Assembly: GCA_964016885.1 (NCBI GenBank)
Contig: OZ024741.1
Coordinates: forward strand, 196,602,001-196,666,000
Length of the DNA stretch: 64,000 nt
DNA from: Eledone cirrhosa
Lineage: Eukaryota
Direction: 5' to 3'
The number at the start of each line of letters is the position of its first letter. Position 1 is the first letter of the stretch. Made by a program: the position numbers and the translations under genes. Of the stretch, positions 13,186 through 42,501 are shown one piece after another. The notes beneath the pieces are model-generated. The model was not told where the DNA came from and searched no databases. It was given only the letters and a program-made list of their open reading frames with translations.

Positions 13186-14290
13186 TGAGTTGGTCCTCTC
13201 CCTCAATTGTTTCTCCTTCTTGGGTGAGATTTACCAGCAGACAATGGGGGTGGCCATGGGTACAAGAACGGGCTCCAGCCACACCAACTTATTTGTTGGC
13301 TACATTGAGGCACACATCTTTTCTAAATACTCCAACCAAACCCCTGGGCTGAACAGTCGTTACATTGACAACTGTTTTGGCGCCACATCTCTCACCCGAG
13401 CTCATCTCGACTCCTTTTTGTCCTTTTCTGCTTCCTCCACCCTGCCCTAGAGTTCACCACCTTTATTTCCACTTCTGTCAACTTCCTGGACATCTCTATG
13501 TCCATTGATCCCTCCAATCATTCCCTCATCACCTCCACCTACTTCAAGCCCTTGGATTCCCACACCTACCTCGACTTCTCCTCCTCCTCACTACCCACCC
13601 ACACCAAACACTCTATCCCCTATCCCAATTCTTCCATCTATGCCGCCTGTGTAGTCAAACCCATGATTTTAAGATTCAGTCTCATTACATGGCCAGACTT
13701 TTCACTGAACGTGGATACCTCCTACCCTGATCCAAGCCACCCTCACCCGTGTCAGTGGCATAGATTAAACCCCTGTTCCCGATCCCACTGTCATAAATGT
13801 AGCTTTATCACCAACATCATTTTCCATCCTTCTGGGTTATGGACTTCTTCAGCTGCACCCCTACCAGCCTTGTCTGTGGGCTCCGTTGTACTCTGAGCGG
13901 AGCCATCTACTTTGGTTAAACTGGCCATCTTCTAGCTGACAGATTTGCTGAACACTTTCAGAACATCCATTTCGACAACACGACTCCGATCTCCCAATAT
14001 TTTCAATCAACTGGCCACTCAGTGTCTTCAGGCTTGCACATTGTACTGGACTCGTTGACTCGTGCTGGCAGATAGAACAGCAACTTATTTTCTCCTTACA
14101 AACCTTTCGTTCCCCTAACCTTAATGCCCCACCCATCTTCCTATAATCTGCTCTGCCATATACTTTCAAACACACACTAAACATACTTCCTCTATCCTAT
14201 GTCACAAATTTGTTAAAACACATACACTCTTACATATAAATCACAGTTAGATAAAGGCTTTCTATGCCATAACTCAGTATTATTTTGACT
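13186..14290 (+). mobile_element. Penelope-like element relic (RT and C-terminal end)
   Basis: YQQTMGVAMG, RYID, NFLDI, YFKPLDSHTYLD, EQQLIFSL motifs. Confidence 0.85.
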
Positions 14291-14609
14291 GAATCAGTTA
14301 ACAAAATAGGATTACTTATCAAGGTTTCCTAGTGTATTTTGTATGTCAAACACAATTGCTTTACTCAAACCCTCTGATTACACTGTCAATGATTTCATTT
14401 GCGTTACAGTGTCTTCAGAAGAACTGATTAGTATTATGTGTGTTATGTGGAGTTATTTGGTGTAGTGTGGTATGTTGATGGGTATCCTAGCTCAACTCTG
14501 CTCAAGCAAACTTATGGCAGCTGATTAAATGCATGAGAACAGAGTGGTATGTGATATAAAATTGCATTTAGTGTAATGTTTGTGTTTTTTTTAATGTATT
14601 GATGTATTA

Positions 14610-14954
14610 GGAGGCACATGGCTTAGTGGTTAGAGCATTGGCCTTGCAATCGAAAGGTTGTGAGTTCAATTCTCAGACCGGGTGATGTGTTGTTTCCTTG
14701 AGCAAAACACTTTATTTCACATTGCTCCAGTTTACTCAGCTGTAGAAATGAGATGATAGGGACTGGGGTCCCTATCATTCCACTGCAAAGTGGACGTGGA
14801 GGTGCCACGGCAAAAAAGCACCCAGCACTCACTGTAAATAAGGTTGGTGTTAGGAAGGGCATCCAGCTGTAGAAATCAAGCCAGAATCAGTTCCCGTCCC
14901 ACCCTTGCAAGCAAGGAAAAGCGGACATAAAATGATGATGATGATGATGATGAT
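14610..14954 (+). mobile_element. tRNA-headed SINE family 1 with (ATG)n RTE tail
   Basis: A-box TGGCTTAGTGG, B-box GAGTTCAATTC; near-identical copy at 63546-63884. Confidence 0.9.
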
Positions 14955-15237
14955 ACTTTACATGTACACAATATAAACTTCAACATACACACGCGCGTTA
15001 AAATTTAATCATACACTCACACATACAAATCCACACATCTCATGGACATACTCAAACATTGCTAGATACTTTACACACACACAAAATAAACTTCAACACA
15101 TAATTTAGCTAAATTAGATGCAGTGATGTTATGTGCAAGGTCAGGAATTGTGGAATAGGAAACATAACATCACTGCATCTAATTTAGCGAAATTACCTAG
15201 CTGTAGCAACAAACAATCTAGTAGTTAGTTCTAGCCG

Positions 15238-15620
15238 GGAAATGTCTATCTAGCAATGTAGTTTACAAATGTAATGTTGACACACCCACAACCAGTAAGA
15301 CTTATGTAGGGTTAACCACCACTAGATTTAAGCAGCGTCTGTAGATGCACGCCCATTTATTTTGTAACCCATTAAGAAGGAACATGATTTCTCTTTCGGC
15401 CTATATTTGGAGTCTAAAAGATAATCACATCCAATATAGGTTACACTGGGAGATCTTAGTTTAAGCTAGATCGTTTAACGGAAATAAAAGGCCATGTGAT
15501 CTTTGTGCTGCCGAAGCCCTGGAAATACTTTACACCAATGATCGAATCTTAAACAATAAATCTGAGGCAATTTCGGCTTGTAAGCACAAATTGTATAAAA
15601 CTTTCTTGTATTACAGCCCA
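15238..15620 (+). mobile_element. Penelope-like GIY-YIG endonuclease fragment (absent from ORF track)
   Basis: Manual translation GKCLSSNVVYKC...TYVGLTTTRFKQR...CDLCAAEA...ACKHK. Confidence 0.8.
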
Positions 15621-15911
15621 ACATTATATCATAACGGATAGTACGGACACTATGCTAATAATTGTTTCTATTTTAGGCACAATGCCAGCAATTACCCAGT
15701 ACATTACTGGTACTTTATTTTATCGACCCTGTAAGGATGAAAGGCAAAGTTAACCTCGGCGGGATTTGAACTCAGATCATAAAGGGACGTAACTCTATGC
15801 TTCAAAGCATGGTGTCCGACTCTCTACCGATACTACTAATCCACCGCTTTGCTAATAATATATGTCATGATGTGAGAGCTAAGAACATTCTAACTTTATA
15901 CCAAAATTTAA

Positions 15912-15956
15912 TTATATATGTATATATATATGTATATATACTTGTATGTATGTATA

Positions 15957-16020
<64 letters not shown>

Positions 16021-16028
16021 TAGATATA
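15912..16028. repeat. Compound (TA)n/(TG)n microsatellite
   Basis: Seen directly. Confidence 0.95.
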
Positions 16029-19000
16029 TCATCGTTTAATGTCCATTTTCCATGCTAGCATGGGTTCAGGTTGTCTCATTAGAGGCAAGTTGGGTCAGGT
16101 GACCGTGTCTTAGGTTTCTATGGCTGGATGCCCTTGCTAATACCAACCACATTGACAGTGTGTGCTGGGTGCTTTTTGTTGTGACTCCTATACGACCATT
16201 TTACAGTGTAAGGGTGGTGTGGACAGAAGTTGGGGTTGCATGGAAGGAGGTATAGTGGTTAAGAGGTGCCTACTAGATGTATGTTTGTGTCCGTGCTCAT
16301 GGGAAGGTGTGTCTCCAGTATTACTGCATAATGCCAAAGATCTCGATCCTGTGTCATTGTCTTTGAGAAGTACAATTGCGCAATGTCAGCTTTTATCATC
16401 TTGTCAGGTCTTCCTTGGTCTGCCTACTCCATAGCTTCCATCAATTTTGATCACCCTGCAGTTTTTTATACAGCTGTCGTCCTTCATATACATCACATGA
16501 CTACACCAACACAATCTCCTCTCTAGTATACTGCATCTGATCCCTCTTATGCCTAATTGCTCTCTCAGATCATTTATGCTTTGCCATTCGTGTATGTAAC
16601 TATTACACATCCATCGGAGCATGCTTGCTTCATTTCTTTCCAATCTTTGCATCTTCTCTGCACACAGTGCCCAGGTCTCACTACCATGTAACATTGCCAT
16701 TTGTATACATGCATCGTAGAATCTGCCCTTCATTTTAAGGAAAAATCTTTTATAGCTAACTGCAGTATTAGTTCCCTGAACTTTCTCCATCTCGTTCTTA
16801 CTTTGGCTACTGTACTTTTGGAGCACCCTCCTCCACTACTTATTTCATCACCCAGGTAACGGAAAGTGTCGGCTATTTCTATAGAACCATCTGGGCAGTA
16901 GAAGGAGCTAGTATTCTGTGGGCACTTGCTACTTGAGCATCGGCCGGATATAAAACCTATGTTCTTTGATAGCCTATCTATGATCCCACTACTTTTATGT
17001 ACCCTTAGCTTGCATTTGAGACATAGAATGGAATTTCTACCTATTCTTTTCCTGCACATTGAGCAAGGGAATCTGGGCCCCATTTTCCTTTCTACATCAT
17101 CATCATCATCATCATTTTACGTTCGCTTTTCCTTGCTTGCAAGGGTGGGACAGGTCTTATTCAGCACAGCATCTCTCCACTTGTCACGGTCCTTCGTCAT
17201 CTCCACCGTGAGCTTCAGCGATCTGAGGTCTGTTCTCACCACCTCCGCCCATGTTTTTCGAGGTCTACCTCTACCGCGTCTTCCTTCAACTGGCATTTCC
17301 TGGCACTTCTTCACCCATCGGTCATCCTCCATGCGCATCACATGTCCATACCACCTCAGTCTCCTCTCTCGCACACTACATTCTATCCCTCTCAGACACA
17401 GTTTCTCTCTCAACACATTCATGCTGGGTCGTTCACGCACATTGACATTGCACATCCAACGGAGCATGCTTGCCTCATTTCTCTCCAGCCGTCGCATATC
17501 CTCTGCAGTTGCTGCCCATGTCTCACTACCATGCAGCATCGCGCACCTCACACAGGCATCATATAACCTGCCTTTCGTACGCAGGGAGAAACCCTTCTTC
17601 GTCAGCAGAGGAAGCAGCTCCCTAAACTTCTTCCAACCTGTCCTTATTCTAGATACTATGATCTCCTAGGTGCCGGAAGCTATCCACCACTTCTATAGCA
17701 CCCGCCTGCATTTGAAAAATGTGTCTATCAATGTGACTTCTACTGTCTAATTTCCCTGTACATCTACTGCATACGTATTTCTCCCCACCTGTTAGTTTGC
17801 CTGCTATCCCACTACATCTCTTGTGTACTCAGGATCTGCATTGTGTGCATTTTATAGAATTTATGCCAGTTTCTTTTCTGCATATCAAACATGGCCATTT
17901 CCCTGACGGAATCAGAGTTTTGTCTTCTTTTCTACTCATCAACATTTTTGTCTTAGCTAGATTCACTCTCAGTCGTCTTGCTTCCAACTGCTGTTTCCAT
18001 AGCCAGAATTTATTCTCTAGCTCCTCTACTGATTCTGCTATAAGAACCAGATCGTCAGCATAGAGAAGTTACCATGGACAGCCAATCTTAAACTCCTCTG
18101 TTATGGCTTGGAGGACTATAATGAACAAGAGCGGGCTGAGGACCGAACCTTGATGTACTCCTACTTGTATCTGGAATTCCTCACTAAACTCCATTCCTAC
18201 CCTGTCTTTACTGAGAGTACCTCTGTACAAAGTTTGCACTGTCCTCACAAGCCATTCCTCAACACCTAGTTTCCTTAGGGACCACCAGATGACAGATCGG
18301 GGTACCCTATCAAAGGCCTTCTCTAGGTCAATAAGGTAAAGTGGCTTATTCTTCTCTAAGAACCTCTTGTAATTGTCTCACCAAGAAGAGGGCATCTGTT
18401 GTACTTTTCCCAGGCACAAAACCAAATTGCATCTCATCTAGTTTGACCCTTTCTTTAATTAGTTGTGCTAATATCCTTTCTGCCACTTTCATAACCTGAT
18501 CCATCAGTTTTATACCCCTATAATTGCTCCTCTCCAGAGCATCCCCATTACCTTTGTAGCAATTTATGAGAATACTGCTGCACCAGTCTTTGGGTATGAC
18601 ACCGCCATATATAGCCTGATTGATGATGCGTGTAACCAGTTTAGTGCCTACGTCCGCTGATGCCTTCAGCATCTCAGCAACTATCCCTGACGGTCCAGCA
18701 GCCTTACCATTTTTCATTTCCTTAATCGCCTCTTGGACCCTATATTCATCAATTTCAATAGCTGATCCCTCTGGCGGATCTACTGAGGGTAATTTCTCTC
18801 TCTCCTATTCGTTCTCCACATTCATCAGTCTCTCATAATGACATTTCCAGGCCTCCTTTTTCTGATCATTCGTGACACTAAGTACACCGGCATCATTCCA
18901 GACACATTTATCTCCAACAACATCCTGATTTGCATTGACACACTGCCTTGCAATGTGGAACACCGCATGCCTCTGATCTTCCCGTCGCAGAACATTGGCA

Positions 19001-19243
19001 AACCTCCTACTCTCAGCCCCCTGCATGCTAAGTACACCTGACGTCTAGCTTCTCTCTTAGCGGCTGTATATCCTTCTCTACTCCCACCCTTTTTCCAAGC
19101 CTTCCATGCTAGTCTTTTGTATCTAATGGCCTTATCTACTGTGCTGTTCCACCACCAGGTCACTCTCTGTCTGGTTGGAGCTCTGCTCCAGCCACATGTT
19201 TCATCTGCACTAAGTTGTCACGTAAGAAATTCCAGTTATTATC

Positions 19244-19521
19244 TGTTGTATGGACTGGGAATCGAACTCACAACCTCATTGTTGTATGGACTGTTAAATT
19301 CGTTTTATTCAATTTACACGTGCTCACACATTTGCATATGAATCACGTGACCTGGGCAGTCAATCAGCGTTGGTATTAAAAACTCGGTCACAGACTGCTG
19401 CTGTCACTTACTTTATGTTATTCTGCTACTGTGAGGAGGGGCGTTTTGGTTGTTTCGTACAATACACAAATTATTTGATATAACTCGTGTTTTCTCTGCG
19501 AATACCGAGAGGAATACAACA
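19244..19521 (+). repeat. 5' LTR (278 bp)
   Basis: Direct repeat of 23804-24080; 4 substitutions and 2 indels by manual comparison. Confidence 0.97.
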
Positions 19522-19529
19522 GAGTTTAT

Positions 19530-19547
19530 TGGCGTCGCCGATAGGAT
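19530..19547 (+). promoter_or_regulatory. Primer binding site (probably tRNA-Ser type)
   Basis: TGGCGTCGCCGATAGGAT 8 nt after the 5' LTR; the tRNA identity is inferred. Confidence 0.75.
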
Positions 19548-19584
19548 TTACCTACATTGCCGGGAAATTGTTTATCATAAAAAC

Positions 19585-22500
19585 ATGGCGGAACAACAAA
19601 CAGCGGAGCTAATAAAGTTGTTTGGAGAACAAATGCAACAACACAAGAACGATATGGACACTCTGATAAAACTGTTTGGTGCTCGAGATTCTGAACAACA
19701 GAGTTTGTTGGCGTCGCCAGTTGCTTCGACACCAACAGCATTCATCCCACCATTTGCTGCTTTTGATTCAACAACAGAACTATGGCCTGATTACTGGTCA
19801 AGATTCTGCACGTTTGTGGCTGCTAACGCTGTACCCGAGCAACGCATGGCACAAGTGTTCCTGACTAATCAGACGGCTGCTATCTACAAACAACTTGCAA
19901 AATCTGGCTGCTCAACAAAATCTGCCTAAGGATATCAACAAGTTGACAATGGACGAAATTGTTGACTTCATGAAAGAACAGTTCGACCCAAAACTTTTCA
20001 TTGTGAGAGAACGTTTTAAGTTCTGGAGTGACATGCAACGGAAGCCAGGCGAAACTCTCCAGGAGCTGGCAGCACGTATACGTCAGGATGCAGCTACCTG
20101 TGATTTTCCTTCGATCACAAATCCACAAGATGAAGCTCTAAGACAGAGATTTATATGTTCTGTCAATAATGAAGCTGTGTTGAAGGCTATTTTCAAGATC
20201 AAGGATACAGAACTAGATTTCGCCCGTGCTGTCCAAGTTGCCATCGGGACCGCAGACACAGCAAAGGTTGCCAAGGAAACTGTTTACGGTTCCAAAACCA
20301 AGCAAGTCTATAAGGTCCAGCAGAACAAGAACAAGGGTCCTCGAAAGAACCATCAGCAGTCTTATTCCACAGACCAGGAGATGTGCTACCGACGTGGAAA
20401 GGCCCACAAAGCGACAGACTGCCCCTTCAAAGAAGCCAAATGTCATTTTTGTGACAAAAAGGGACATTTGCAAGCGGTGTGTAGAAAGAAACAACATCAG
20501 CAACGTAATCATCGCTCACAGAATTACGTGAAAAGAATCACGAAAGCTGAGCTAGTCAAGGCGATCCTTGGTGAAGTTCCCCACGATACTCATAGTTTGA
20601 ATGTGCCAATAACAATCCAGAACAGACTTTTCACAATGGAATTGGACACAGCTACTACAGGCAATTTTGTTTCCTTGTCAGTTTGGAAACAATTAGGAAA
20701 ACCGAAGCTACAAGATGTCAAACATCGGTTTGAATCTGCCAGCAAGCACGACCTGCCCGTTCTGGGAACTTTCATGGGCCAAACCAAGGATCCAACGACC
20801 GGTAAATGGAATTCAATACCCTATATCGTCACCAAGATCCCTGATCTTAATTTGCTGGGACGAAACGCTATCCAGACTCTGGGAATTTCCGTGGATAATG
20901 CTCTAGGATTGAAAAGCATAGACAGCCAGGCCAAGAGTGAGGGTGCAGAAGTGATGCATCCAAAGACCTCAAATGAGCCCTATATTTCCATGCAACGAGA
21001 TTGTCACAACATGTGTGATGAATTCCCAGATCTCTTCAAGCAAGAATTGGGATGTCTTAATGACTTCGAACTGGAAGTGAAGTTCAAGTCGGACGCGACA
21101 CCGGTCTTTCACAAGGCACGCCCGGTCCCGTTTGCTCTTCGTGATGACCTGGCCAAAGGAATCTGGAAGCCAGTACAGTTCAACGAATACAGAACGCCAG
21201 TGGTACCGATTTGTAAAGCACATACTTCAGGCAACCTGAAGCCCAAACTACGGATTTGTGGTGACTACTCTGTGGGAATTAATGACCAACTTGCAGATCA
21301 TCGTCATCCAATGCCACTCCCAGAGGAACTGATGCAGAAGCTCGGAGGTGGATTCGGATACACAAAGATTGATCTTGCTGATGCCTATAATCAGATCAAG
21401 CTGGCTCCAGAAAGTCAACGCAGGCTTGCACTCAGCACTCACCGTGGGGTGCTCCTGCAGGAATGACTCCCTTTCGGAATCAAGTCAGCACCTGGTTACT
21501 TTCAGGAGATCATGGAAAACCTGACTCAAGATCTACCTGGTGTGGCCGTCTTCCAGGACGACTTGCTCGTCAGTGGGAAAGATGCAAACGATCACCTGAA
21601 CAACCTAAAGTGTCTGCTCACACGTCTGTGCGACAAAGGACTCAGATGTCCCCGTGAGAAGTTCCAGTTGCAATACCCAGTGTGGAATACCTTGGACACA
21701 CCTTGTCGGCTGAAGGGATCGCGAAGGGATCCAAAGTCGAAGCAGTTTTAAAGATGCCACCTCCAACGAACGTCTCAAGCTTGAAGTCTTTCCTGGGTTC
21801 AGTTCAGTTCTATGGAAAGTTTATCCCAAACCTGGCCAGCATGGCAGAGCCACTCTATTGCCTTACGAAAAAAACGACTACTTGGAAGTCAGGAGATGAA
21901 GAACAGTCAGCTTTCGATCAGTCGAAAAATGTGCTTTCATCGGATCGAGTTCTAATACACTTCGATCCAAACAAAACTTTGGGACTGGCTTGCGACGCGT
22001 CAAACGTTGGTATTGGAGCAGTCCTGTTTCATCGCTATCCTGATGGAAGCGAGCGCTCAATATCCAATGTGTCCAAGACTCTTACTTCTGCACAGCGTAA
22101 CTACGGCCAAATTCAAAAGGAAGCCCTGGCCATCATATTTGGCTTGCAGAAGTTCTATCAGTATCTGTACGGACATCAGTTTATACTCGTAACTGACCAC
22201 AAGCCACTGACATCACTGTTCAGTCCGAGGAAAGGGACGCCACTTCTTGCTGCTAACCGACTAGCATGGTGGGCCCTGTGGCTGAACCAGTTTGACTACA
22301 CCATCGAATATCGGAAAACAGCGGATCATGGCAATGCACATGCCCTCAGCCGCTTGCCATTTGGTAATGACATCGACTTTGACAGGAAGGAAAATGGTGA
22401 AGACATGGACATGGTGTGCGCCATCAAAGCTCTCAGTCTTCAAGTCCAACCTATCGATGCTAACGTCCTCCGTCAAGAGTCAGGGAAAGATCCAGTGATA

Positions 22501-23769
22501 CGCTACGTCCGTGAAGGCTGGCCACCAAAGAATACTGAGATCAATGACGAAGTCAATAAGTTCCGGAAGTTATCGGATTCACTCAGTATCTGCCACGGAT
22601 GCCTTATCCATGGATCGAGAGTTGTGATTCCACATAGCTTACAGCCAAAGATCCTCAATCTCGGACACTTTGGCACGGAGCGCATGAAACAATTGGCAAG
22701 AACTGCTGTTTATTGGCCTGGTATCGATGCTGCTATAGAGAAAACCAGTCGACAATGTGATTCGTGTGGTGAACATCAAAACCAGCCATCCAAGTCTCCA
22801 GTTCACCCATGGATGTTACCTGAAAAGCCGTGGAGCCGCTTACACCTGGACCACGCAATAAATTTCATGGGCAGTAATTGGTTGGTGATCACGGATGCTT
22901 ATTCCAAGTATCCATGCATTCATCCTACGTCATCCACGTCCTCCAGAGCTACTTCAGATCTGCTTGAAGAAGACTTTGCGCACTTCGGATTTCCTCACAT
23001 GCTAGTCACTGATAACGCACCAACTTTTATTTCTGAGGAGTTCCAGAGCTGGTGCAAAGAACGTGGGATCACGCACCTGACAGGAGCACCTTACCACCCA
23101 GCTACCAACGGAGCAGCGGAACGTTTGGTGCAGACCTTCAAACAAGCTCTGAGGAAGACTTCTCTTCCGCCGAAGCGAGCACTTCAAGTGTTCTTGATGC
23201 AGTACCGGAGAACACCGACATCCAGTGGATTCTCTCCGAGTGAACTTTTGAATCACCGGCAGATACGGACAAGGATTGATTCTCTGCTGCCCTCGCCAGC
23301 ACACATCGCTCAAGGCAAGCAGTCTAAGGAAGCATATAAGTCTCAGATGACTCCGGACTCGGCATGTGTCGCTAAGGTTACCAGGCAGTACAAGGCTGGA
23401 GATCCTGTGTATGCACTATACTACGGACCTCGCCGAGACAAAGATCCCCGATGGGTACCAGCAATCATTAAGAAGTCATTGGGTACTCGCTGCTTCAACG
23501 TTAAGGTCATACCTCATGGCCCGGTGTGGAGACGACACTGGGAACAGCTGCAACCGCGGTACACTACTGAGGAAGACAATGAACCTGGTGATGCAGTAGA
23601 CACTGTTTTTGAATTTGCAACAGATCACCCGATGGAGATCTCGGAAATCGTGCCACTAACTCCAAGACAGACCAGACCCAAGACCTTGTTGCCCGTTCCA
23701 GAGTATGGACCAGACAATCGAAGACGGTCCAAGAGAACTCGTAAACCCCCAGAGAGACTTTGCTGTTGA
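19585..23769 (+). pseudogene. gag-pol of the Gypsy element, frameshifted near 19900, 21465 and 21670
   Basis: Zinc knuckles (CHFCDKKGHLQAVC), protease LDTAT, RT KIDLADAY/FQDD, RNase H CDAS, integrase HLD/VTDNA/AER spread over four ORFs. Confidence 0.93.
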
Positions 23770-23803
23770 TGCTTCTTTTGTCGCATCAATTTCGGTGGGG
23801 AGG

Positions 23804-24080
23804 TGTTGTATGGACTGAGAATCGAACTCACAACCTCATTGTTGTATGGACTGTTAAATTCGTTTTATTCAATTTACACGTGCTCACACATTTGAATATG
23901 AATCACGTGACCTGGGCAGTCAGTCAGCGTTGGTATTAAAAACTCGGTCACAGACTGCTGCTGTCACTTTATGTTATTCTGCTACTGTGAGGAGGGGCGT
24001 TTTGGTTGTTTCGTACAATACACAAATTATTTGATATAACTCGTTGTGTTTTCTCTGCGAGTACCGAGAGGAATACAACA
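23804..24080 (+). repeat. 3' LTR (277 bp)
   Basis: Follows purine tract GGTGGGGAGG; ends ATACAACA followed by the TSD. Confidence 0.97.
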
Positions 24081-25269
24081 TTATCTATGTCATACGTCTC
24101 TAAATCGTTTTCTTTTTCGTCATACACATCTTGAAGGGCTTTCCTAAATTTGTATTTTAGTGAAAGGTCTTTTAGCTTCCAGACCTTTCCTCTCCACACC
24201 ATACTAGAAATTTAGTCTTAGACAAGTTAACTTTAAGACCTTTTGATTCTGGGCCATGCTTCCAGGTTTGGAATTTCTTCTCTAATTCTGCTATTAGAGT
24301 TAGATCATCTGCATACAGAAGTTCCCATGGGCAGCCAGTCTTAAACTCTTTTGTTATAGCCTGTAAGGCAATAATAAACAGGATAGGGCTAAGTAAGGAG
24401 CCCTGATGAACACCTATCTGTATGTTAAATTCTTTACTATATTCATTGTTAATTCTAACCTTGCTGACTGTTCCTCTATACATGGCTTGTATAGCTTTCA
24501 CAAGCCACTCATCTACTCCTAGTTTTCTAAGTGCCCTCCAGATAATGGAACAAGAGACTCTGTCAAAGGCTTTTGCCAGGTCAACAAAAGCTAAGTATAG
24601 TGGTTTAGTTTTAGCTAAGTACTTCTCCTGCAGTTGCCTCACAAAGAAGAGAGCACCCATGGTTCTTTTACAAAGCCAAACTGCATTTCATCAAGCTTAA
24701 TTCGATGTCTAATCAGCTGTGTGATAACTCATTCTGTTACCTTCATGACCTGGTCAACCAACTTAATGCCTCTATAATTTTCTGTCCAGAGTGTCTCCTT
24801 TGCCCTTGTAGCAATTTACAATGATGTTACTACACCAGTCATTTGGTATGACCCCATTTTTGTATTAATTGGTTTACTATACAGGTGACTTTAGTGTGTT
24901 CCACCATCCCAGATGCTTTCAGCATCTCAACAACTATTGTCAAAGGTCCAGATGCTTTGCTTGCCTTATCTTTGATTGCCTTACTTACTACAGTAGCATT
25001 CAAAATAAGAGAACAATAAATTAATTTTTTATTATTTTCCTTATTTGACAAAATGTTTCCTTTAAAATTTGAAAGAATATGCATAGTATATATATATCTG
25101 TCTTGAGCTAAAATATTTTCCCAATAATCAAGGGTATACTCAAGATATTAATGATATACCTTTAATTTTGAAAAAATACAGTAATTAAAATAAGAGAACA
25201 CAAACACGATCTTTACGAAAACACAATTAAATATGAGATTTGGTCTACAAACTAGGGTTTATGCATTCT

Positions 25270-28200
25270 CAAATATTAATAGGAAATGTAGAGGCCCTTG
25301 CTTTGGATGAGTTCAGCACATCTGCGTCCATATGAAGTCACCATTGTGTAGTGATATTATTCCTCTCTTCCTCCAGTTTCTTCCATAATTCAGTGGTTGT
25401 AGCTGGGTTTTTTGCCATGACATTGTCCCCAATGATCTTCTAAAAGTTCTCGATTGGATTTAAGTAGGGACTCTGGGCTGGACATTTCAAAACTTCTATT
25501 TCCTCATCTTCGAGAAATATTTTCACTCATTTTCCAGTGTAGCAAACCATGACACTAGCTCCTCCGAATTTTACAAACTTTTTGACGTACTTAGAAAGAA
25601 GTCTTTCCCTCAATTTTACATCTTACATATTGGTTACCATCTGAACCAACCAAATTAAACTTGCTTTCATCACTAAAATAAACTTTGGACCAGTTTTTTT
25701 TCACTCCACACCACATGCTTCTCAGCAAAGGCAAGTCTAACTATTTTATTTTTTTGCTGATAAGAGGTTTGATCACTGGGGAGTGGGCTTCCAATCCAAT
25801 TTCTGCCAGACAACAAGAGACACTTCCTTGCCCAAATTAGCGCTGATTTGTCGAGATATTTCAGTTGCAGTGTCAAAGTGTTTCCCCATAGACATTCTGT
25901 GTAGCATGCGGTCCACTTGACTTGTTTTACATGGACAGCTGGCCTTCTTCATAGACGTGAATGAGTTGGTTTCATTATGGAATTTCATTATCCTCGCTAT
26001 TACACATTTCATCATCATCATCATCATCACCGATTTACATCCGTTCTTCTACACTAGCATGGGTTAGACGGGTTGTCCTGTTGTGGACAGTGTCCAGTCG
26101 GCTGACCTTCTCTTGCTCATACGGGAACTGATTCTGGCTTGATTTCTACAGCTGGATGCCCTTCCTAACACCAACCTCATTTACAGTGAGTGCTGGGTGC
26201 TTTTTTGCAGTGGGAGGGGGTAGGGGTATATTGTCTACATGCTTCAGCTTCGGCTTCTACCCGTGGGAAGTCGGGTCTTCTGTATGACTGTGTGACGCCA
26301 GAGGTCACGGTCGTGTGTCATCGCCCTTGAGAGGTGCAATTGGGTAAGGTCGGCTTTTATCACCTCACTCCAGGTCTTCTTGTGTCTCCCCACTCCACGG
26401 CTTCCATCGACTTCTAGTGTTCTGCACCTTTTTATGCAGCTGTCATTCTTCATACGCATCACATGTCCATACCAATGCAACTTCCTCTCCTGCACGCAGC
26501 ATTTGATTACTCTTATGCTCAGTCTCTCTCTCAATTCGTTTTTGCTTTTCGCATTTATTACTATTATTACACATCTATCGGAGCATGCAAGCTTCGTTTC
26601 TTTCTAATCTATGCAAGTCTTCTACAGACAGCGCCCAGGTCTCACTACCATGTAACATTGCTGTTCGTATACACGCATCATACAGTCTGCCTTTCATTTT
26701 GAGGGGAAAGCCTTTTGCAGCTAGCAGTGGCAGTAGCTCCCTGAACTTCTTCCATCCCGTTCTTACCCTAGTTATTATACTTTCCGAACACCCACCTCCA
26801 CTGCTAATTCGGTCACCTAGGTAGCAGAAGCTGTCTACTGTTTCTACAGAGCCCTCCCAGAGTTTAGTGGTGCTTGTTTCCTGTGGCCGTTTGCTGCTTG
26901 CTGTCCCAGCACAGCTGCTACATTTTTAGTTAAGCTTCCTGAGATCCCACCACATCTCTTGTGTAGCCATTGTTTGCATTTGGGGCAGAGGATGGAGTTC
27001 CTACCTACACCTTTCCTACACACTGAGCAAGGCCATTTCCCTGAGGGGATCTGGGTTCTGTTTTCTCGTCTACTCAGGTTGACTTTGAGACCCTTTCTTT
27101 CTAGTACCTGCTTCCATGTTTGGAATTTCTTCTCTAGTTCCACCATAGATTTAGCTATAAGTGCGAGATCATCTGCATATAGGAGTTCCCATGGGCATAC
27201 GGTCTTAAACTCTTCCGTTATTGCCTGCAAAACTATAATGAACAGGAGAGGGCTAAGAACAGAGCCCTGGAGGACACCGACCTGTATGCTAAATTCCTCA
27301 CTATAGTCATTGCTAACCCTAACTTTACTGACTGCTCCTCTATACATGGCTTGTACAGCTTTCACAAGCCATTCATCTACTCCTAATTTTCTAAGAGCCC
27401 ACCACATTATAGCATGGGGGACTCTGTCAAAGGCTTTTTCCAGATCGACGAATGCCAGGTAGAGCAGCTTACTTTTAGCTAGGTACTTTTCCTGTAACTG
27501 CCTCACAAGCAAGAGGGCATCAGTGGTGCCTTTTCCTGGTACAAACCCAAATTGCATACCAGATCCCTAATTAACTGTACTATAACTCTTTCTGTTACTC
27601 TCATGACTTGGTCCATCAGCTTTATACCTCTATAGTTTCCTCTATCTAGTGCATCACCTTTACCTTTGTAGCAGTTGACAATGATGCTGCTGCACCAATC
27701 CTTTGGTATGACACCCTCTAGTATTACCTGGTTAACAATACATGTGGTTATGGTGTGACCTACCGACCCAGATGCCTTCAGCATCTCGGCAGCTATACCC
27801 GATGAACCGCTTGCCTTCCCCGTCTTCATATCTTTGATTGCCTTACTTACTACGCTGCTGCTGACTTGTACTGCTGGTCCCTCTATAGGGTCCACTTGGG
27901 GTAGGGTCTCTTTTTTCCCATGCATTCTCCTCATTTAGTAATCTTTCATAATGGCTCTTCCACGCATCTTTCTTCTCAGCACTTGTGAGGGCAAGCTCAC
28001 CTTTATCATTCCGGATATACTTCTCTCCAATGACATCATAATTCTCTCTGACACACTGCCTCGCAATCTTGAACACCTCCTGTTTCTGGTCCTCACGTTG
28101 CAAAACATGCTTGAATTTTCTATCCTCTGCTTCCCTTCTAGCTAAGTATACTTGTCGCCTAGCTTCCCTCCTGGTCTCTATTTTAGAATGGCTAACTTCC

Positions 28201-28295
28201 CTTCCAATGGCCAAGAGAGAGAGTCCATCACTCTTCATCTGAATGACTTTACGTCGGAGTGCTTCAATTACCTTGAAATGGGCCGACGTCTTGCC
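25270..28295 (-). pseudogene. Tc1 transposase relic, split by RTE 'C' and internally deleted
   Basis: N-terminal HTH region GKTSAHF...GREVSHS (28295-28184) continues as KCVIARIMKFHNET at 26009; the second catalytic Asp region appears deleted. Confidence 0.85.
26010..28179 (-). mobile_element. 5'-truncated RTE LINE 'C'
   Basis: (CAT)n tail from 26010, 3' UTR, RT ORFs with FVDLEKAFD, QGSVLSP, YADD. Confidence 0.93.
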
Positions 28296-28523
28296 AAGAG
28301 TTGATAGGAAAATAAAATATACTGGTAACATGACCCTGTTGACAAGTGTTGCCAGATATTTCTAGAAAATTCAGGAAATTACCCTAAAATATAAAAAATC
28401 ACTAGAGTGTTCTCTTATATTGATCACTGCATTTTTTTAAAATTAAAGGTATATCTTTAATATCGTTTTTATATTCTTGATTATTTAGAAAATATTTTAA
28501 CACAAAATAGATATATATATACT

Positions 28524-30710
28524 ATGATGGTGTACTTGCCATCACTGATGCTGATAAGAAGGTAGCTTGGAAGTGTCACTACGAGAGGCTACTAAATGAG
28601 GAGAATAAATGGGACAAAGATAGTCTTCCCCACATCGATCCAATAGAGGGACCAGCAGTGCAAGTTGAAGGTAGTATAAGTAAGGCAATCAAAGATATGA
28701 AGACAGGCAAGGCGGCTGGGCCTTCGGAAATAGTTGCTAAAATGCTGAAAGCATCTGGAACGGTGGGACACACTATGGTCACCCGGATAGTAAACCAAGT
28801 CATACAGAACGGGGTCATACCAAATGACTGGTCTAGCATCATCATCATTAACTGATACAAGGGTAAAAGAGATGCACTAGATAGAGGAAACTATAGAGGC
28901 ATTAAATTGATTGACCAGGTCATGAAGGTCACAGAAAAAGTTATAGTGCAACTAATCAGAGAGCAAATTGATCTAGACGAAATGCAGTTTGGGTTTATGT
29001 CAGGTAAAAGTACCACAGATGCCCTTTTCCTTGTACGACAACTACAGGAGAAGTACCTAGCTAAAAGTAAACCCCTATACTTAGCTTTTGTTAACTTGGA
29101 GAAAGCATTTGACAGAGTCCCCCGTGCCATTATCTGGTGGGCTCTTAGAAAACTAGGGGTTGATGAGTGGCTTGTGAGAGCTATACAAGCTATGTATAAA
29201 GAAACAGTCAGCAAGGTTAGAATTAATGAATATAGTGAAGTTTAGCATAAAAGTTGGTGTTCATCAGGGCTCTGTCCTTAGCCCCCTCCTATTTATTATT
29301 GCCCTTCAGGCTATAACAGAGGAGTTCAAGACTGGCTTCCCATGGGAACTTCTCTATGCAGATGATCTAAGGCTCATAGCTGAATCGATGGCTGAACTAG
29401 AGAAGAAATTCCAAACATGGAAGCATGGCCTAGAATCAAAAGGCCTTAAAGTTAACTTGTCTAAGACTAAAGTTCTAGTATGTAGGAAGGAAAATAGGGC
29501 ATAGGTGCCCTCTGGGAAATGGCCATGCTCAGTGTGTAAGAAAGGAGTAGGCAGAAATTCCATTTTATGTCCCAAATGCAAAGTATGGGTGCATAAAAGA
29601 TGAAGTGGGATCACAGGTAAGCTATCTAAGAACGTAGATTTTATATGTGGCCGGTGCTCAGGTGCAATAACTAGCAAGCGCCCACAGGATACTAGCTCCT
29701 TCTATTGCCCAGATGGCTCTATAGAAATAGTGGACACCTTCCGTTACCTGGGTGACAAAATCAGCAGTGGAGGAGGGTGTTCTGAAAGTACAGTAGCCAG
29801 AGTCAGAACGGGATGGAAAAAGTTCAGAGAGCTTATACCACTATTGGCCGCTAAAGTTTCTCTCTAAAAATGAAAGGCAGACTGTATGATGCCTGCATAC
29901 GAACAGCTATGTTACATGGCAGTGAGACATGGGCATTGTGTGCAGAGGATCTACGCAGACTGGAGAGGAAGAAGCATGCATGCTCCGCTGGATATGTAAT
30001 AGTAATATACGTGAACAGCAAAGCATAAAGGAACTAAGTGAGAAATTAGGTATAAGCGGGATCAGATGCTGTTTACTCGAGAGAAGACTACATTGGTATG
30101 GTCACATGATGCGCATGAAAGACGACAGCTGTATAAAAAAGTGCAGGGCGATCAAAATTGACAGAAGTTACGGAGTAGGTAGACCCAGAAAAACCTGAGA
30201 CGATTTGATCAATTCCGACCTTACACACTTCACCTCTCTAAGACAATGTCGCTGGACCGACATCTTTGGCGTTACGCAGTAATACAGAAGACCCGCCTTG
30301 CCTAAGTACAAAGCGAAACCTACAGTCAGTAGGCTCCTCTTAATCAAATATACACCCCCTCCCCTCCCACTACCCCAACTCCCCCACCCCCACCCACATC
30401 AACACCACCCCTTTCTCTGTAAAGTTATGTTGGTACCACAACATCCAGTCCTAAATAAATGAGGTCTTGTAGGTGTCACGACAAAAATAAAACACAGTCC
30501 ATGCTGTAATGTGGCCGTGTAGGTAACACGGTAAAAACCTCCCAGTCCACACTGTAAACGTGGTTGGGGTTAGGAACAGCATCCACTCGTAGAAAACCTG
30601 CCAGACAGTCCCATACGAGCGAGACGACCAATCTTGCCTCAAATGGGACAATTCCCGTCTAAACCCATGCTAGCGTGCAAGATAGACGTTAAACAATGAT
30701 GATGATGATG
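28524..30710 (+). mobile_element. 5'-truncated RTE LINE 'D', inserted in the Tc1 terminal repeat
   Basis: RT motifs, (ATG)n tail to 30710, ATACT on both flanks (28519-23, 30711-15). Confidence 0.93.
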
Positions 30711-31054
30711 ATACTGCAAATATTCTTTCAAATTTTAAAGGAAAAATGTTGTTAAATAAGAAAAATAATGAAAAGTTAATTTAGCGTTCTCTTATTTTGA
30801 TCACTACTAACTTTCGTAGCCAGTTCCTCTGTTGTGTCAACGTGAGGCAAACTGTCGTCATCACATTCATTGTCCTCATTTAATAGTCTTTTATAGTAGC
30901 ACTTCCATGCTACCTTCTTTTCAGCATCAATGAAGGCTAGTACTCCTTTATCATCGCAGACACATTTCTCACCAACAACATCACAATTTTCCTTGATACA
31001 TTGTCTCACAATCCTGAACACCTCACGCCTTTGGTCCTCGCATTGCAGAAAATA

Positions 31055-31223
31055 CTGTATTTCCCGACGTCGAAGATGCTACTTTTCTCCTAAAATAAGT
31101 CTCAAAAATCTACCATGAGTCCTGGAGGCTGAAGGTTGTTTATTATTTTTTTTCAAATTTTTGGTTGTCAAAATTAGGGTGTGTCCTCAAGGACGAAGCG
31201 TCTTCGGCGCTGAGAAAATACAG
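31055..31223. mobile_element. Tc1/pogo-type MITE
   Basis: TA|CTGTATTT...AAATACAG|TA with imperfect ~28-bp TIRs. Confidence 0.85.
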
Positions 31224-33004
31224 TACTTAAATTTTATACACTATATCCTCGTTTATGCATGCTTCCACACCGGTCAGTGCATACTTATGTATGGGCCTAA
31301 ATCTATAACACTACTTTTAATGTTCTCATCGTCATTGGCAGTATCAGTAATGGGGGGATTGGCAGTATTAGTAGAAGGTCAGACGCCATGCTTTGCAGCA
31401 TAGAGTTACGCCCCTTTATGGTGTGAGTTCAAATCCCGTCGAGGTTCACTTTGCCTTTCATCCTTATGGGGTCGATAAAATAAAGTACCTGTAATCTACT
31501 GGGATAATTGCTGGCCTAGTGCCAACAATAGTAGAAACAATTATTATTAGTTTTACTCTTTTGGACATTAAGTTGATGTTACGAACATAACTTATCAAAG
31601 GTTTTTACATAAATTTATGATGTGAGCTTTTTAGATAAATATAACTAATTCAAAATGACATGTTTTGTATCATAGAATCATGGGCAGTTTTATGAATACC
31701 CTGGATGTATGATACAAAACTGCTAATTTAAAAATGTTTATCCTTATATCAAAACATTTCCACCATAGAAATTTTTGTTAAGTGATGTTTTAAATGCACC
31801 AGTAATATATTTCACATTTTACTGTTCAATAATTTAATTTCACAAGTTATTTCAGTAATTGTTCTGTTTCTATCTTTCTTGGAAATGTTTACCCCCCCCC
31901 CCCCACGAGAGAGTGGCGGGCAACTATATGTATAAAATTTGTTGAAGGAGCTTTAGCTACTATGAACAACTGCATATAGTTTCTGTTGTTGTTGTTGTTA
32001 AGTGCCAAAGACATTCCTACCATGATCATGCCATCTTTTTCATATGTGCAGGGAACTAAAAGCCACATTATCCAATGTGTCCTTTTGTTAGATGGTCAGG
32101 TTTGATTTGCAGATTTAGCTACTATTTCTACTAGGTTAAGCAACCACATAGAGGCTTCTCTTTTGGCTCATATATACTCTGTGATTGTGTGGTTGAGAAG
32201 CTAAAGCAAAGATGTAAAAAGCAGAATTGTTTTGGTGAAAAGCAAAAATTATTACACATGGTTAAATATAAATTTACTAACCACTTTACAGAATGCACTG
32301 GATGCATTTTACTGTGGCACCAAAACCACTGACAATTAAATTTATATTTTAAATCAGTGGGGTCGCCATTCATACTCAATAAATAATTCTAAAGCTTGAT
32401 TTTGTTTTTTATTTACTTCTTGTACTAGTGAATCAGTATTGTTAATAATTGTTTCTACTTTAAGCACAAGGCCAGCAATTACCCAGTGCATTACTGGTAC
32501 TTTATTTTATCGACCGCGTAAGGATGAAAGGCAAAGTTAACCTCGGCGGGATTTGAACTCAGAATGGCAAGGGATGTAACTCTATGCTTCAAAGCATGGT
32601 GTCCGACTCTCTACCGATACTGCCAATATTGTTAATAATGATGGCAATAGCATTTAACGTATTTAATCCCATATATATACTTGGATTAATGAATATATAT
32701 GAACAAGCATAAAAACTGGGAAATTTGTGTTTTGATAAATGAATGGTTTGCCTAAGAGAAACCCTATAGTTTATGTTTATTACTGACATGTGGAAGTGAT
32801 TAAAGATAAAATATTTTAATAATTTATTTCTAGTATATAATTGCATAAATGTTCAGCATATATGTACAAATGACACTCTGGATTAAATGTAGGTATAACT
32901 TTAGAGTTGATGAAATAAGTATGAACAATATATTGGTTGACACATCTTCTACCTAAAATAATCCTTGTTATTTATTAATACTTGTGTTTTGTTGACGTGT
33001 TTAC

Positions 33005-34765: not shown

Positions 34766-34913
34766 GTGTTAACTTTCTAAAATGAGGTATACTTTCTTTT
34801 CTAATGATTTTCAGTAATTTTTCTAACAGATATACGAAGAAATGATTTTAAAAATGATCTGTTTTCATTATTTTTAATATTTTTAATATTCCTTTTTATT
34901 TAATTTTTTTCAG

Positions 34914-37900
34914 AAGGAAACTTTAGGATCTACTGCTTTGGAGGCTAATAGGCTTAGTAATAATGGATCAAGCAATTCTCTAAGTTCTCAATATAAAAAC
35001 TTAAATTGTGAGTCAAATGAATTCAATGCTAAATCAAACCATTTACAAGCATATGACGAAAGTATGAGTCGTGTTGAAATGGATAATTATCCCCTAGAAA
35101 ACACAAGTTTTAATCACCCTATGTCTTTCAAACAAAATAAAGAGATTCATAAAAATTATAGTCAGAAAAGGCAGAAAACTTTAGAATTCCTTGAAAAGTT
35201 GCTGAAAAATTGTGACCCCGAAATAGAGGAACAACTAAAAAAGCTAGTCAAAGAGAAGTTTGGACCCCATTTGAAGAGTAGTCATCATAAAGAGGTTCTA
35301 TCATCTAACCAAACAGTCAATGATATTATGGAACTTCTGGAACAACAGAAAAGTGATTCTTTTGTATCTTGTAATTCTTCTAGACTGTCCTCTTTGTCAA
35401 GTCGAAGTAAAAACGATTGGCGTAAACAAAGAACTGATAACAATAGGAATTCGTTGAAATCTTCCAAGCCATTTCTTTCCAAAAACATGGTGACTAAAAG
35501 TATTCCTTCATTTGTTTTGAGTGGAACAAATACAGCTGAAGACTCAGATGAAGGTGTCTTTTTACTTGGAGACAACTGCTCAGAGAACAAGTTGGCAAGG
35601 CACAACAACGCTAGCAATATTTCTGAGATTAGATATCACAAAGATTCTCCTAATAGTCCTCAACATGACATGTGGGATACCATTCATCAAGTTCTTAATG
35701 AACAAAAATTAGAAGATCAATTTTGGCAAAAGGCAACATCCATAAAAAATAATTTTGAAACAAAATTCCCTAATCTTACAGACAAATCAAGCACAGAAGA
35801 TTCAACAATTAAAAATATACTGAAATCAATAGGATTTGATACAGAAATGTGTAAAAGAATGCAAGAATGTGCCAAGCAAGTGTCAGGTAAAAATGATCAA
35901 TTGAAGTGTCATAAAGATAAACATTTAACAAACAAATCTAAGCATAGTTTGTCTCCCGAAACAGATAAATCTGGGCTTAAAAGAGGGAAAAACAAAATTC
36001 TATCTTCTGAAAGGGCATACAATAAATCTCTTCCTAACAAGAATTTCATTGCAACTGTTCCTCCTATTGATACATCAGTTCCACCTCCTATTGCTAATTT
36101 CTCAAACACAATAACTCCCCCACCTTTAGCACCTCCTCCTCTACCAATGTTTCATGGTAGGCCACCTGTACATCCTGTGTTACCACCTGGTCTACCACCA
36201 CCACCACCTGTTGTCCCTGCCAATTATAACCATCTTCCACCTCAACCCACAATAGTTCCACCTTGTGGGCCATTCCTTCCTCAGCCCCAAACATCTAACA
36301 TTTTCCATCAACAGTACAATTTTAACAATATGTATGATAGGAATTCTTACTACAATACTTCAAGGTCCATTATTCCTACTTCTATACCACCTCCATCCCT
36401 TCATTCAAACTTAAAAGTTATACCACTCTCTTCAGTTCCTACATTAAATCATTCTATACCATCTGCCACAACTCCGTCATCATTACCTGGCTCTTCATTA
36501 TGTAGGGATAACTCACCCAACGTAGATAGCTGGCTGTCTAATAATGAAAGGCCTTCACAATGGAATTTACTTTCTCCTCCTCACAGAGACAGATCTCCCA
36601 TGTCATCAAGACAAGATCGGTCACTTACACCATGTTCATCAAGGCATGCATCTCACACATTAAGACGTGAAAGGTCTCAGGGCTGTAGCTCATCAAAGCG
36701 AGACAAGTCACGAAGCCCACCTTCTTCAAGGCGAGGTAGATCACGAACTCCTAGTTCTTCAAGGCGAGGTAGATCACGAACTCCTAGTTCTTCAAGGCAA
36801 GATAGGTCACGAACTCCTAGTTCTTCAAGGCGAGACAGGTCACGAGACAGATCACAGACACCATCAAAATCAAGACAAAAAAAATCACGAAATCAAAAGA
36901 GACGCGATAGATCTAGAACTCCTTATTCTTCGAGAAGAAGCCACTCAAGATCACCATGTTCTATGAAAAGAGATAGACCCAGATCTCCTGTTTCTAGGAG
37001 AAGTTCACGATATTCTAAATCTTCTTCCAGACACAGCCGATCACCAACTAAGCCAAGCAGATCTCGCACCAAAAGATCAAGGCTACTGCATCCTGTGGAT
37101 GAAAAATTTTCTTCAGAATACGAACATTCGCTATCTCCTCCAGCTCAAAGGAGAACTGGTTCTCCTGTACAGTGTAATGGCTCATCTGAAAGCAAAAATA
37201 ACAATGGCAGTTCACTGAAAGTGCAAGATGTAAAAGAAATTTTTGCCCTAAAATCTAAAAACTTGAATGCTTCTACAAACAACACTAACAGAAAGTATTC
37301 TTGTTTTCTACCACATGAAATTGAGCAGATAATAAGACAAAGGATTTTGTGCAGCAGTCGTCTTGAAACATTGCAAAATGAACTAGCAATGCTTCGCAAA
37401 CAGCAAAACGAATTGATGCGCAAAAAACAGCGTGAAAAAGATGGTCATAAAGATCCAATTTTGATTGAAAATGCTGCTTTACAGGAAGAAGTTAGCAATC
37501 AAGTTAAACTGCTGAAAAAGACTGTGGAAGAACTTACTGAAACTTTGGAAATATCGGGAATGTCTATGGAGTCTTTTACTTACCATGAAAAATTTTATCA
37601 GTACTCCAAAAAATCTTCTTTATCTGATCAATTTGGATTTAAAAGCAAAAGTCAGGAAAATAGAGATAATGATAAAAAAAGAAAGACAAATAAATTCCAT
37701 TCACACGGGTTTGACAAAACTGCTTCTATACAAAAAGAAATGTCTTGTGAACGATTCTCCTCTCGAGATAATGAACCTTTTCTCCCTTTAGAAATAAAAT
37801 CTTTTTCAAAAGAAAGGCAGCCCAGTGATAAAGGCAAGTTTGCATGGAATAAAAGAATGGATAATTGTCAGCTGTACGAGGACAAAGATAAGAAAACCTC

Positions 37901-42363: not shown

Positions 42364-42501
42364 GTATTTTGTTCTTTTTTTATTCCCATTTAACACTTAA
42401 TGTCCTGTACAACATGAAACGTATTTGGAAGACATTCTTGAAACCTTTACTTTAATACTTCAAAGTTTTATAAACAGATAAACCTGTGATTTTACTCTTA
42501 A

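What the first reader, a model, noticed from the sequence alone, without database searches (positions are those of the whole stretch)
16028..31240. Seven-element, three-level nested transposon complex inside a single RTE
One truncated RTE (B) has grown to about 15 kb through three insertions. First, RTE A (17098-24199, CAT on both flanks), which contains the Gypsy element (TSD TTATC). Second, an IR-DR Tc1 (24991-30808), which contains RTE C in its transposase and RTE D in its terminal repeat. Third, a MITE (31055-31223). The junctions rejoin collinearly, apart from a few bases lost at the right Tc1 end. This gives a relative chronology B < A < Gypsy and B < Tc1 < C, D.
Basis: seen in the sequence. 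Interest (0 to 1): 0.7.

Follow-up and report, generated by a model that had tools for sequence, protein, structure and literature searches.

The report
Four-level nest of old jumping genes
Seven jumping genes sit inside one another in a 15-kb stack, with insertion scars and sequence ages that fit the stacking order, and the whole stack likely sits inside an eighth, older element; it is an unusually tidy but most likely ordinary pile-up of broken transposons.

Summary
The nest is real. Each host's pieces map collinearly on other genomic copies: B/A overlap CAT, A/Gypsy TTATC, Tc1/C TTT, Tc1/D (AT)ACT, B/MITE TA; 13 bp are lost at the right Tc1 end. Own-branch K2P distances: B 0.080, Tc1 0.052, MITE 0.026, C 0.025, D 0.022, A 0.020, Gypsy 0.009; the host was older than the guest in 6 of 6 pairs. 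Two corrections: the MITE lies only about 6 B-specific bases inside B, and B itself likely sits in the TA-rich tail of an eighth element, a Hydra-clade Penelope-like element that also holds two SINEs, giving four levels and ten elements. Best explanation: independent insertions over a long time, partly steered by the TA preference of these LINEs (31 of 60 related 3' ends abut TA runs, background about 7%). Three inserts in 2.1 kb is an upper tail (P 0.0005-0.03), unremarkable among thousands of candidate copies. Empty alleles could not be tested usefully. All classes are known and nesting chronologies are a standard method. The scan noted TA-tract LINE nests before on other DNA of this genome (e1-9530689).

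The parts
15101..15661 (+). Element E, left part: 5'-truncated Penelope-like element (Hydra-clade features), GIY-YIG endonuclease end, with a short inverted 5' piece (15101-15163)
   Evidence: 79% protein identity over 136 aa to an intact-frame relative P0025 that carries RT motif YRDD, CxCX5C linker, VY..YIG, CxxC and CxH; 24 of 24 nearest loci continue into the next part
15662..15853 (+). SINE-like repeat (about 190 bp) inserted in E, about 9-bp duplication
   Evidence: E resumes after it with overlap on relatives; best copies 92% identical
15854..16027 (+). Element E, 3' untranslated part and TA/TG tract, the likely target of B
16028..17097 (-). B1: 3' part of LINE B (RTE-like), ends CAT at the A junction
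17098..19243 (-). A1: 3' part of LINE A with (CAT)n tail; ends in TTATC
   Evidence: RVT_1 match in 18346-18804
19244..24080 (+). Ty3/Gypsy-type LTR retrotransposon, LTRs 19244-19521 and 23804-24080 (TG..CA), broken gag-pol in three frames, no room for env, 5-bp TTATC duplication
24081..24199 (-). TTATC copy plus A2, the 5'-truncated end of A
   Evidence: 95-98% to most A relatives, collinear with A1
24200..24990 (-). B2: RT region of B, begins with the duplicated CAT, ends in the TA target of Tc1
24991..26009 (-). Tc1 left part: TIR 24991-about 25201 with two direct repeats and an inner TA spacer; transposase C-terminal part with an internal deletion of about 50 codons
26010..28181 (-). LINE C (RTE-like), in the transposase gene, TTT duplication
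28182..28523 (-). Tc1 middle part: transposase N-terminus and inner half of the second TIR, ending in the TA spacer
28524..30712 (+). LINE D (RTE-like), in the TA spacer of the TIR, (AT)ACT duplication, (TGA)n tail
30713..30808 (-). Tc1 outer half of the second TIR; last base lost
30809..31054 (-). B3: upstream part of B; about 10 bp missing at its start; ends in the TA target of the MITE
31055..31223 (.). MITE, 169 bp, about 25-bp terminal inverted repeats, TA on both sides
31224..31238 (-). Duplicated TA and B4, the 5' end of B: 6 B-specific bases, then up to 7 bases shared with E
31232..31336 (+). Element E, right part (continues for about 20 bp after the next SINE, 31538-31557)
   Evidence: 5 of 24 copies of this repeat carry the E left parts within 600 bp upstream; background 1 hit of the left marker and 0 of this part in 895 kb
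31337..31546 (-). Second SINE-like repeat, likely inserted in E near its end

Best explanation
The 15-kb block is a stack of seven transposons whose insertion scars and divergence agree with the nesting order, and it likely arose by independent insertions over a long time into DNA that was already dead transposon, with an eighth, older Penelope-like element likely hosting the whole stack. Shown: the junctions, target duplications and the order within each branch. Inferred order: a Hydra-clade Penelope-like element (E) inserted; LINE B entered E's TA/TG tail soon after (ages not separable); the Tc1 cut-and-paste element entered a TA in B, and 13 bp at its right end were later lost; LINEs C, D and A, the MITE and two SINEs arrived in a later period (order among C, D, MITE and A not resolved); the Gypsy element came last, into A. 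Each LINE entered by target-primed reverse transcription (5' truncation, trinucleotide tail, short duplication; mechanism from established knowledge). A TA-run preference of these LINEs likely steered two of the four LINE insertions (B into E's tail, D into the Tc1 TIR spacer); the other events need only an open, neutral target that grew with each insertion. No function is proposed.
For: Collinear rejoining with class-typical duplications at every junction; 14 of 16 full-length Gypsy relatives have exact 5-bp duplications like this copy. Host older than guest in 6 of 6 pairs; LTR pair 4 substitutions in 274 columns. Each element belongs to a dispersed family whose nearest copies are unnested or nested differently, so the block was not copied as a unit. 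Relatives are interrupted too: one B relative carries two inserts in 1.4 kb (L186); 4 of 15 Tc1 relatives carry 5 foreign inserts, one of them two. Substitution spectra of B, A, C, D and Tc1 are dominated by C>T and G>A on both strands, as in neutral decay. TA preference: 31 of 60 scored 3' ends of A, C, D relatives are followed by TATA/ATATA, background 7%; 3 of 22 resolved Tc1 TIR spacers hold foreign inserts, one an RTE-like 3' piece.
Against: Three primary inserts in 2.1 kb is rare at the rates seen in B relatives (P 0.0005-0.027, rate bracket 0.07-0.30 per kb), so a locally permissive site cannot be excluded; the bracket rests on 9 breaks among 29 relatives, most unresolved. The two Tc1 TIRs differ by 29 of 196 columns, which halves to about B's age rather than to 0.052, so the Tc1 date is soft. 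The right part of E gave a smaller branch (0.043 over 99 bp) than B, though its relatives were picked with that same stretch. Only 2 of 24 loci picked by E's left part show the right part within 1.5 kb; most belong to another subfamily. The TA runs next to LINE tails could in part have grown after insertion.
Confidence: 0.88

Rival explanations
1. A landing-pad cascade: elements that carry TA tracts (the Penelope-like tail, the Tc1 TIR spacer) attract TA-seeking LINEs, so nests are seeded by sequence rather than by chance, and this is the main cause of the stack.
For: B sits in E's TA/TG tract and D in the TIR spacer; 3 of 5 foreign inserts in 15 Tc1 relatives fall in the two spacers, about 30 of 1593 bp (binomial P 6e-5, site chosen after seeing D); 31 of 60 LINE 3' ends abut TA runs.
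Against: A, C, Gypsy, Tc1 and the MITE did not land in TA tracts, so the effect explains at most 2 of the 7 insertions into or of B; two of four LINEs is just the genome-wide rate.
Confidence: 0.2
2. A locally permissive or selected trap (piRNA-cluster-like or open chromatin beside the ZNF318-like gene) gathers and keeps insertions here.
For: Low Poisson probability; the block is fully repeat-covered while the rest of the window is about 44% covered by the same search; three of four LINEs and the Tc1 lie on the minus strand.
Against: Insertions span a ninefold range of divergence; D and the Gypsy element lie on the plus strand; the density is confined to the block itself; the locus was picked after the fact, and the B search alone had 10,439 first-look candidates (not a copy number).
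Confidence: 0.07
3. The arrangement is an assembly or recombination mosaic of similar LINE copies rather than true nesting.
For: Four related LINEs lie within 15 kb; nearest tree neighbours of B1, B2, B3 differ; no listed contig piece bridges a junction.
Against: Base-exact duplications at five junctions cannot come from a misjoin; the four LINEs are only 66-82% alike; eight contig pieces of run X1 match 24829-25979 with no difference (this run may be the source of the assembly).
Confidence: 0.03

Closest known systems
Nested transposition clusters used for chronology (TinT, PMC3014933, abstract; interruption analysis, PMC2517846, abstract)
   Same: Element-in-element insertions that give a directional order of activity; described there as arising by chance and numbering in the thousands per genome.
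   Different: One locus with five classes of element in a non-mammalian genome; ages here come from pairwise distances to genomic relatives, not from a frequency matrix.
IR-DR group of Tc1 elements (Sleeping Beauty, Minos, S, Paris, Bari; PMC4120734, passages)
   Same: Long TIRs with two direct repeats each, TA target, Tc1-type transposase; nearest full protein found (P0022, 340 aa) has D-34-E spacing.
   Different: TIR about 210 bp rather than about 250, with an inner TA spacer that collects inserts; this copy has lost the stretch with the second catalytic D.
Hydra clade of Penelope-like elements (PMC8557442, section 11 read whole, plus passages)
   Same: C-terminal GIY-YIG, CxCX5C linker, CxxC and CxH around the conserved E and N, no CCHH cysteine pair inside the GIY-YIG core, DKT motif, inverted 5' piece.
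   Different: Here the element is the target, through its own TA/TG-rich tail; hammerhead ribozyme not found by Rfam in 14500-32700; no RT phylogeny made.
RTE-clade LINEs with microsatellite tails (PMC6007223 and PMC9115989, passages)
   Same: RT plus AP-endonuclease family, trinucleotide tails, 5' truncation, link between tail and target.
   Different: Duplications here are only 3-5 bp (the cited study scored only 10-49 bp); a PHD-finger-like stretch follows the RT domain; clade not tested by phylogeny.
Ty3/Gypsy LTR retrotransposons without env (label from domain order; lineage not tested)
   Same: TG..CA LTRs, 5-bp duplication, protease-RT-RNase H-integrase order.
   Different: Small young family (16 full-length relatives listed); this copy is broken.

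Membership tests
True nested insertion cluster | Host fragments collinear on one family copy, overlap limited to the target duplication | tested here: met
   B2/B3 has a 10-bp gap instead of an overlap
True nested insertion cluster | Guests younger than hosts | tested here: met
   6 of 6 pairs, 200 of 200 replicates each; E versus B not separable
True nested insertion cluster | Empty orthologous sites in other individuals or species | tested here: inconclusive
   laid reads were swamped by paralogous copies
IR-DR Tc1 | Long TIRs, each with two or more direct repeats | tested here: met
   about 210 bp, repeats at both ends of each TIR
IR-DR Tc1 | DD34E transposase | tested here: inconclusive
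   first D and E motifs present, second D deleted in this copy; nearest intact protein P0022 (53-68% identical by piece) has D-34-E
IR-DR Tc1 | TA target duplication | tested here: met
   TA at the left end and before most relatives' ends; right copy lost in a 13-bp deletion
Ty3/Gypsy | TG..CA LTRs, short target duplication, integrase downstream of RT-RNase H | tested here: met
   (protease and RT matches weak, E 0.015 and 0.03; RNase H and integrase strong)
Ty3/Gypsy | RT phylogeny inside Ty3/Gypsy rather than BEL | not tested
   no reference set used
RTE-clade LINE (A, B, C, D) | AP-endonuclease plus RT, microsatellite 3' tail, 5' truncation | tested here: met
   RVT_1 in A, B, C; endonuclease in the 87%-identical relative of D at 7449-8507; tails
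RTE-clade LINE (A, B, C, D) | RT phylogeny inside the RTE clade | not tested
MITE of Tc1/mariner type | Short, non-coding, terminal inverted repeats, TA duplication, dispersed copies | tested here: met
   169 bp; 9 fetched relatives 89-94% alike, with TA at their ends in the rows in register; autonomous partner not sought
Hydra-clade Penelope-like element (E) | C-terminal GIY-YIG, CxCX5C linker, CxxC/CxH, no CCHH, DKT motif | tested here: met
   motifs read in relatives L238 and L240 and, for the C-terminal ones, in the window; no Pfam or PDB match of weight
Hydra-clade Penelope-like element (E) | Hammerhead ribozyme | tested here: inconclusive
   no Rfam hammerhead hit at E up to 0.1; the copy is old and interrupted
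Hydra-clade Penelope-like element (E) | RT phylogeny inside the Hydra clade | not tested
   reference proteins are in the paper's supplements, not read

The most novel reading that the evidence does not exclude
In this genome, transposons that carry their own TA tracts (Hydra-clade Penelope tails, the TA spacer inside an IR-DR Tc1 terminal repeat) act as built-in landing pads for TA-seeking RTE-like LINEs, so deep nests are seeded by element-on-element targeting, and LINE hits in the TIR spacer separate the two transposase-binding repeats and immobilise Tc1 copies.
Probability: 0.35. Interest if true: 0.45.

Novelty: new member of a known kind. Interest (0 to 1): 0.24.

Why it matters
Modestly. 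The locus is a clean internal calibration: it fixes the order of activity of five transposon classes in this lineage and shows that divergence-based dating agrees with physical nesting. Its eight or more insertion points are ready presence/absence markers for related species. It also points at a countable pattern (LINE insertions into TA tracts carried by other transposons). It reveals no new element class, mechanism or host function.

Tried and rejected
Empty alleles: two read-laying runs (27, 29; runs X1, X4, X5, X16, X17) were dominated by paralogous copies; the joint 19237-24080 and the loose ends at 24200 are what uninterrupted family members give, so they are not evidence of empty alleles. 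No RNA holder was listed for the neighbouring exon. Segmental duplication of the block: rejected, no other locus matched across the B2/Tc1 junction among 42 matches or across the MITE/B3 junction among 40. ADAR-type A>G hyper-editing (lead from earlier notes): not seen in B, A, C, D or Tc1; the Gypsy element and MITE were left out. The negative B2-B3 identity correlation (rho -0.40, 32 loci) was set aside as an effect of picking relatives with either B2 or B3. A target duplication for B was sought and not found; its 5' end abuts E directly. Weak HhH-GPD and T3SS_CopN Pfam hits are below cut-off and treated as chance. The protein atlas gave no answer for E; PDB sequence search found nothing; a first homologue search with long proteins found nothing. 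Literature searches for nested elements in octopus (3 listed, none on this) and for nested chronology wording found no paper on this locus; most subscription papers are not searched.
Full report
Setting. The window is G000:C2:196602001-196666000 of a 3.0-Gb animal assembly. Earlier scan notes call the genome octopus-like; I did not test that. Outside the block about 44% of the window matches repeats by a limited search, a lower bound. Exons of a ZNF318-like gene begin about 3.6 kb to the right (34.9-38.0, 38.9, 42.3, 43.7 kb and on); the first begins after an acceptor-like tract, so the block may be intronic, but no upstream exon was identified.

Observation. I searched the genome with each element and aligned each window fragment separately to the relatives. 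B1 and B2 overlap by 3 bp on the same relative copies, A1 and A2 by 5 bp, the Tc1 pieces abut, and B2/B3 leave a 10-bp gap. Junction letters give: CAT duplicated around A (indistinguishable from A's tail at one side); TTATC around the Gypsy element, present once in 8 of 10 printed A relatives (two rows differ); TTT around C; ACT (or ATACT) around D; TA around the MITE. At the right Tc1 end the last G, the duplicated TA and about 10 bp of B are missing; a deletion between short repeats would explain this (inferred). The Tc1 has TIRs of about 210 bp with two direct repeats each and has lost about 50 codons including the second catalytic D; its nearest intact protein has D-34-E. The Gypsy element has TG..CA LTRs, RNase H before integrase, three separate frames and no room for env; 14 of 16 full-length relatives have exact 5-bp duplications, 2 have one mismatch.

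Chronology. Own-branch K2P distances from pairwise three-point estimates on the ten nearest relatives (nine for the MITE): B 0.080 (0.068-0.096), Tc1 0.052 (0.043-0.065), MITE 0.026 (0.010-0.051), C 0.025 (0.021-0.032), D 0.022 (0.017-0.030), A 0.020 (0.014-0.025), Gypsy 0.009 (0.007-0.012). Relatives covering under 40% of an element were dropped (45, 29, 19, 14, 24, 24 and 9 kept). Host exceeded guest in 200 of 200 replicates for 6 of 6 pairs; C, D, MITE and A were not separable (0.74-0.94). The LTR pair differs at 4 of 274 columns, in line with 0.009. Against: the two TIRs differ at 29 of 196 columns, more than 0.052 per branch predicts. Relatives are best hits, which biases all values down. 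B's three pieces have terminal branches of 0.070, 0.086 and 0.089 on trees of 26 relatives, with different nearest neighbours; L152 is closest overall across all three.

The sequence right of the MITE is another repeat (40 matches). In 5 of 24 fetched copies it is preceded, across a TA/TG tract, by the sequence that lies left of B in the window; in 895 kb of other loci the left marker occurred once and the right part never. The left part encodes the end of a GIY-YIG endonuclease, 79% identical to relative P0025, which carries RT motif YRDD, a CxCX5C linker, CxxC and CxH and no cysteine pair inside the GIY-YIG core; L240 has DKT. These are the features given for the Hydra clade of Penelope-like elements (PMC8557442, section 11 read whole; its supplements were not read). 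So B most likely inserted into the TA/TG tail of element E, which also holds two SINEs: four levels, ten elements. Caveats: only 2 of 24 loci picked by the left part show the right part within 1.5 kb, most being another subfamily; E's branch is 0.078 (0.059-0.108) on the left and pooled parts but 0.043 on the 99-bp right part; B has no visible duplication. A second consequence: B extends past the MITE by only 6 specific bases plus up to 7 shared with E, so this is the thinnest link, though those six bases fit B's family far better than E's.

Is it more than chance? Of 29 B relatives, 9 stop short in the unselected 3' 1.1 kb. Fetching 10 kb for these 9: one is a deletion, one has two inserts with resumption, three run into another LINE without resumption, one ends in a different 3' end, three are unresolved. 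That brackets 0.07-0.30 inserts per kb and gives P(3 or more in 2.1 kb) of 0.0005-0.027. Of 15 Tc1 relatives, 4 carry 5 foreign inserts and one carries two; P(2 or more) is about 0.06-0.11 at assumed rates of 0.25-0.35 per kb. The block is an upper-tail case, but it was picked after the fact from a genome where the B search alone had 10,439 first-look candidates. No other locus shares its junctions.

Mechanism. Shown: order and scars. From established knowledge: LINEs and Penelope-like elements insert by target-primed reverse transcription, Tc1 and its MITEs by cut-and-paste into TA, Gypsy by integrase. Inferred: partial steering by TA runs. Of 60 scored 3' ends (23 A, 19 C, 18 D relatives, out of 29, 24 and 24; the rest lacked the end), 31 are followed by TATA or ATATA against 7% of random positions. 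Three of 22 resolved TIR spacers in the Tc1 family hold foreign inserts (5 more TIRs were unresolved), one being an RTE-like 3' piece, and D sits at the same site. B and D fit this pattern; A and C do not. Substitution spectra show ordinary C>T and G>A decay. Read data could not test empty alleles.

Comparison with what is known. Nested insertions as a chronology are standard (PMC3014933 and PMC2517846, abstracts). IR-DR Tc1 features are from PMC4120734 (passages); RTE tail and target links from PMC6007223 (passages) and PMC9115989 (passages). An Octopus vulgaris annotation reports 66% repeats and a mean of 54 kb of TE per 100 kb (PMC13282606, first part of the text and passages), a setting in which nests are expected if this genome is similar. 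My searches listed no paper on this locus or on Hydra-clade tails as LINE targets; the library lacks most subscription journals.

Verdict. Observation confirmed and extended; interpretation supported; a new instance of a known kind. Interest 0.24. The most novel reading not excluded is element-on-element targeting through TA tracts (probability 0.35, interest 0.45 if true).

Noticed in passing
window 34887-38009, 38878-39000, 42264-42380, 43709-43855 (+): Exons of a ZNF318-like gene (homologues named ZNF318 from a brachiopod, an oyster and vertebrates).
   Followed up: partly
window 47048-48580 and 54773-58186 (+): Two large open exons, 85% identical over 1.1 kb, both after acceptor-like tracts: a tandemly duplicated exon, possibly alternative last exons of the ZNF318-like gene.
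   Followed up: no
window 14605-14952 and 63541-63884: A young SINE-like element (97% identical pair) with a tRNA-like head whose tail joins 93 bp that are 98% identical to LINE C's 3' region and about 60 bp that are 95% identical to LINE A's 3' end; a candidate two-LINE chimeric tail.
   Followed up: no
L004, L009, L016; window about 28205-28225: The Tc1 family carries a short (GA)n run inside the transposase 5' coding region that has expanded by 51-170 bp in 3 of 15 relatives.
   Followed up: partly
window 26844-27566 (-): LINE C has a PHD-finger-like stretch (Pfam PHD 24.8 bits, cut-off 24) right after the RT domain.
   Followed up: no
window 12820-13188 and 13133-14150 (+): Frames that look like a Helitron Rep fragment and a second Penelope-like RT/endonuclease remnant (read; labels recalled, not tested).
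   Followed up: no
window 50720-51431 (-): Another old Penelope-like remnant, 26-29% identical to P0025.
   Followed up: no
L186 (G000:C1:230890301-230894500): A B-family copy with a 2.7-kb insert holding a LINE piece and a separate 330-bp SINE: a smaller nest of the same kind.
   Followed up: partly
window 39661-40183 and 62519-62938: Head-to-head pairs of the 190-bp SINE forming long imperfect inverted repeats.
   Followed up: no
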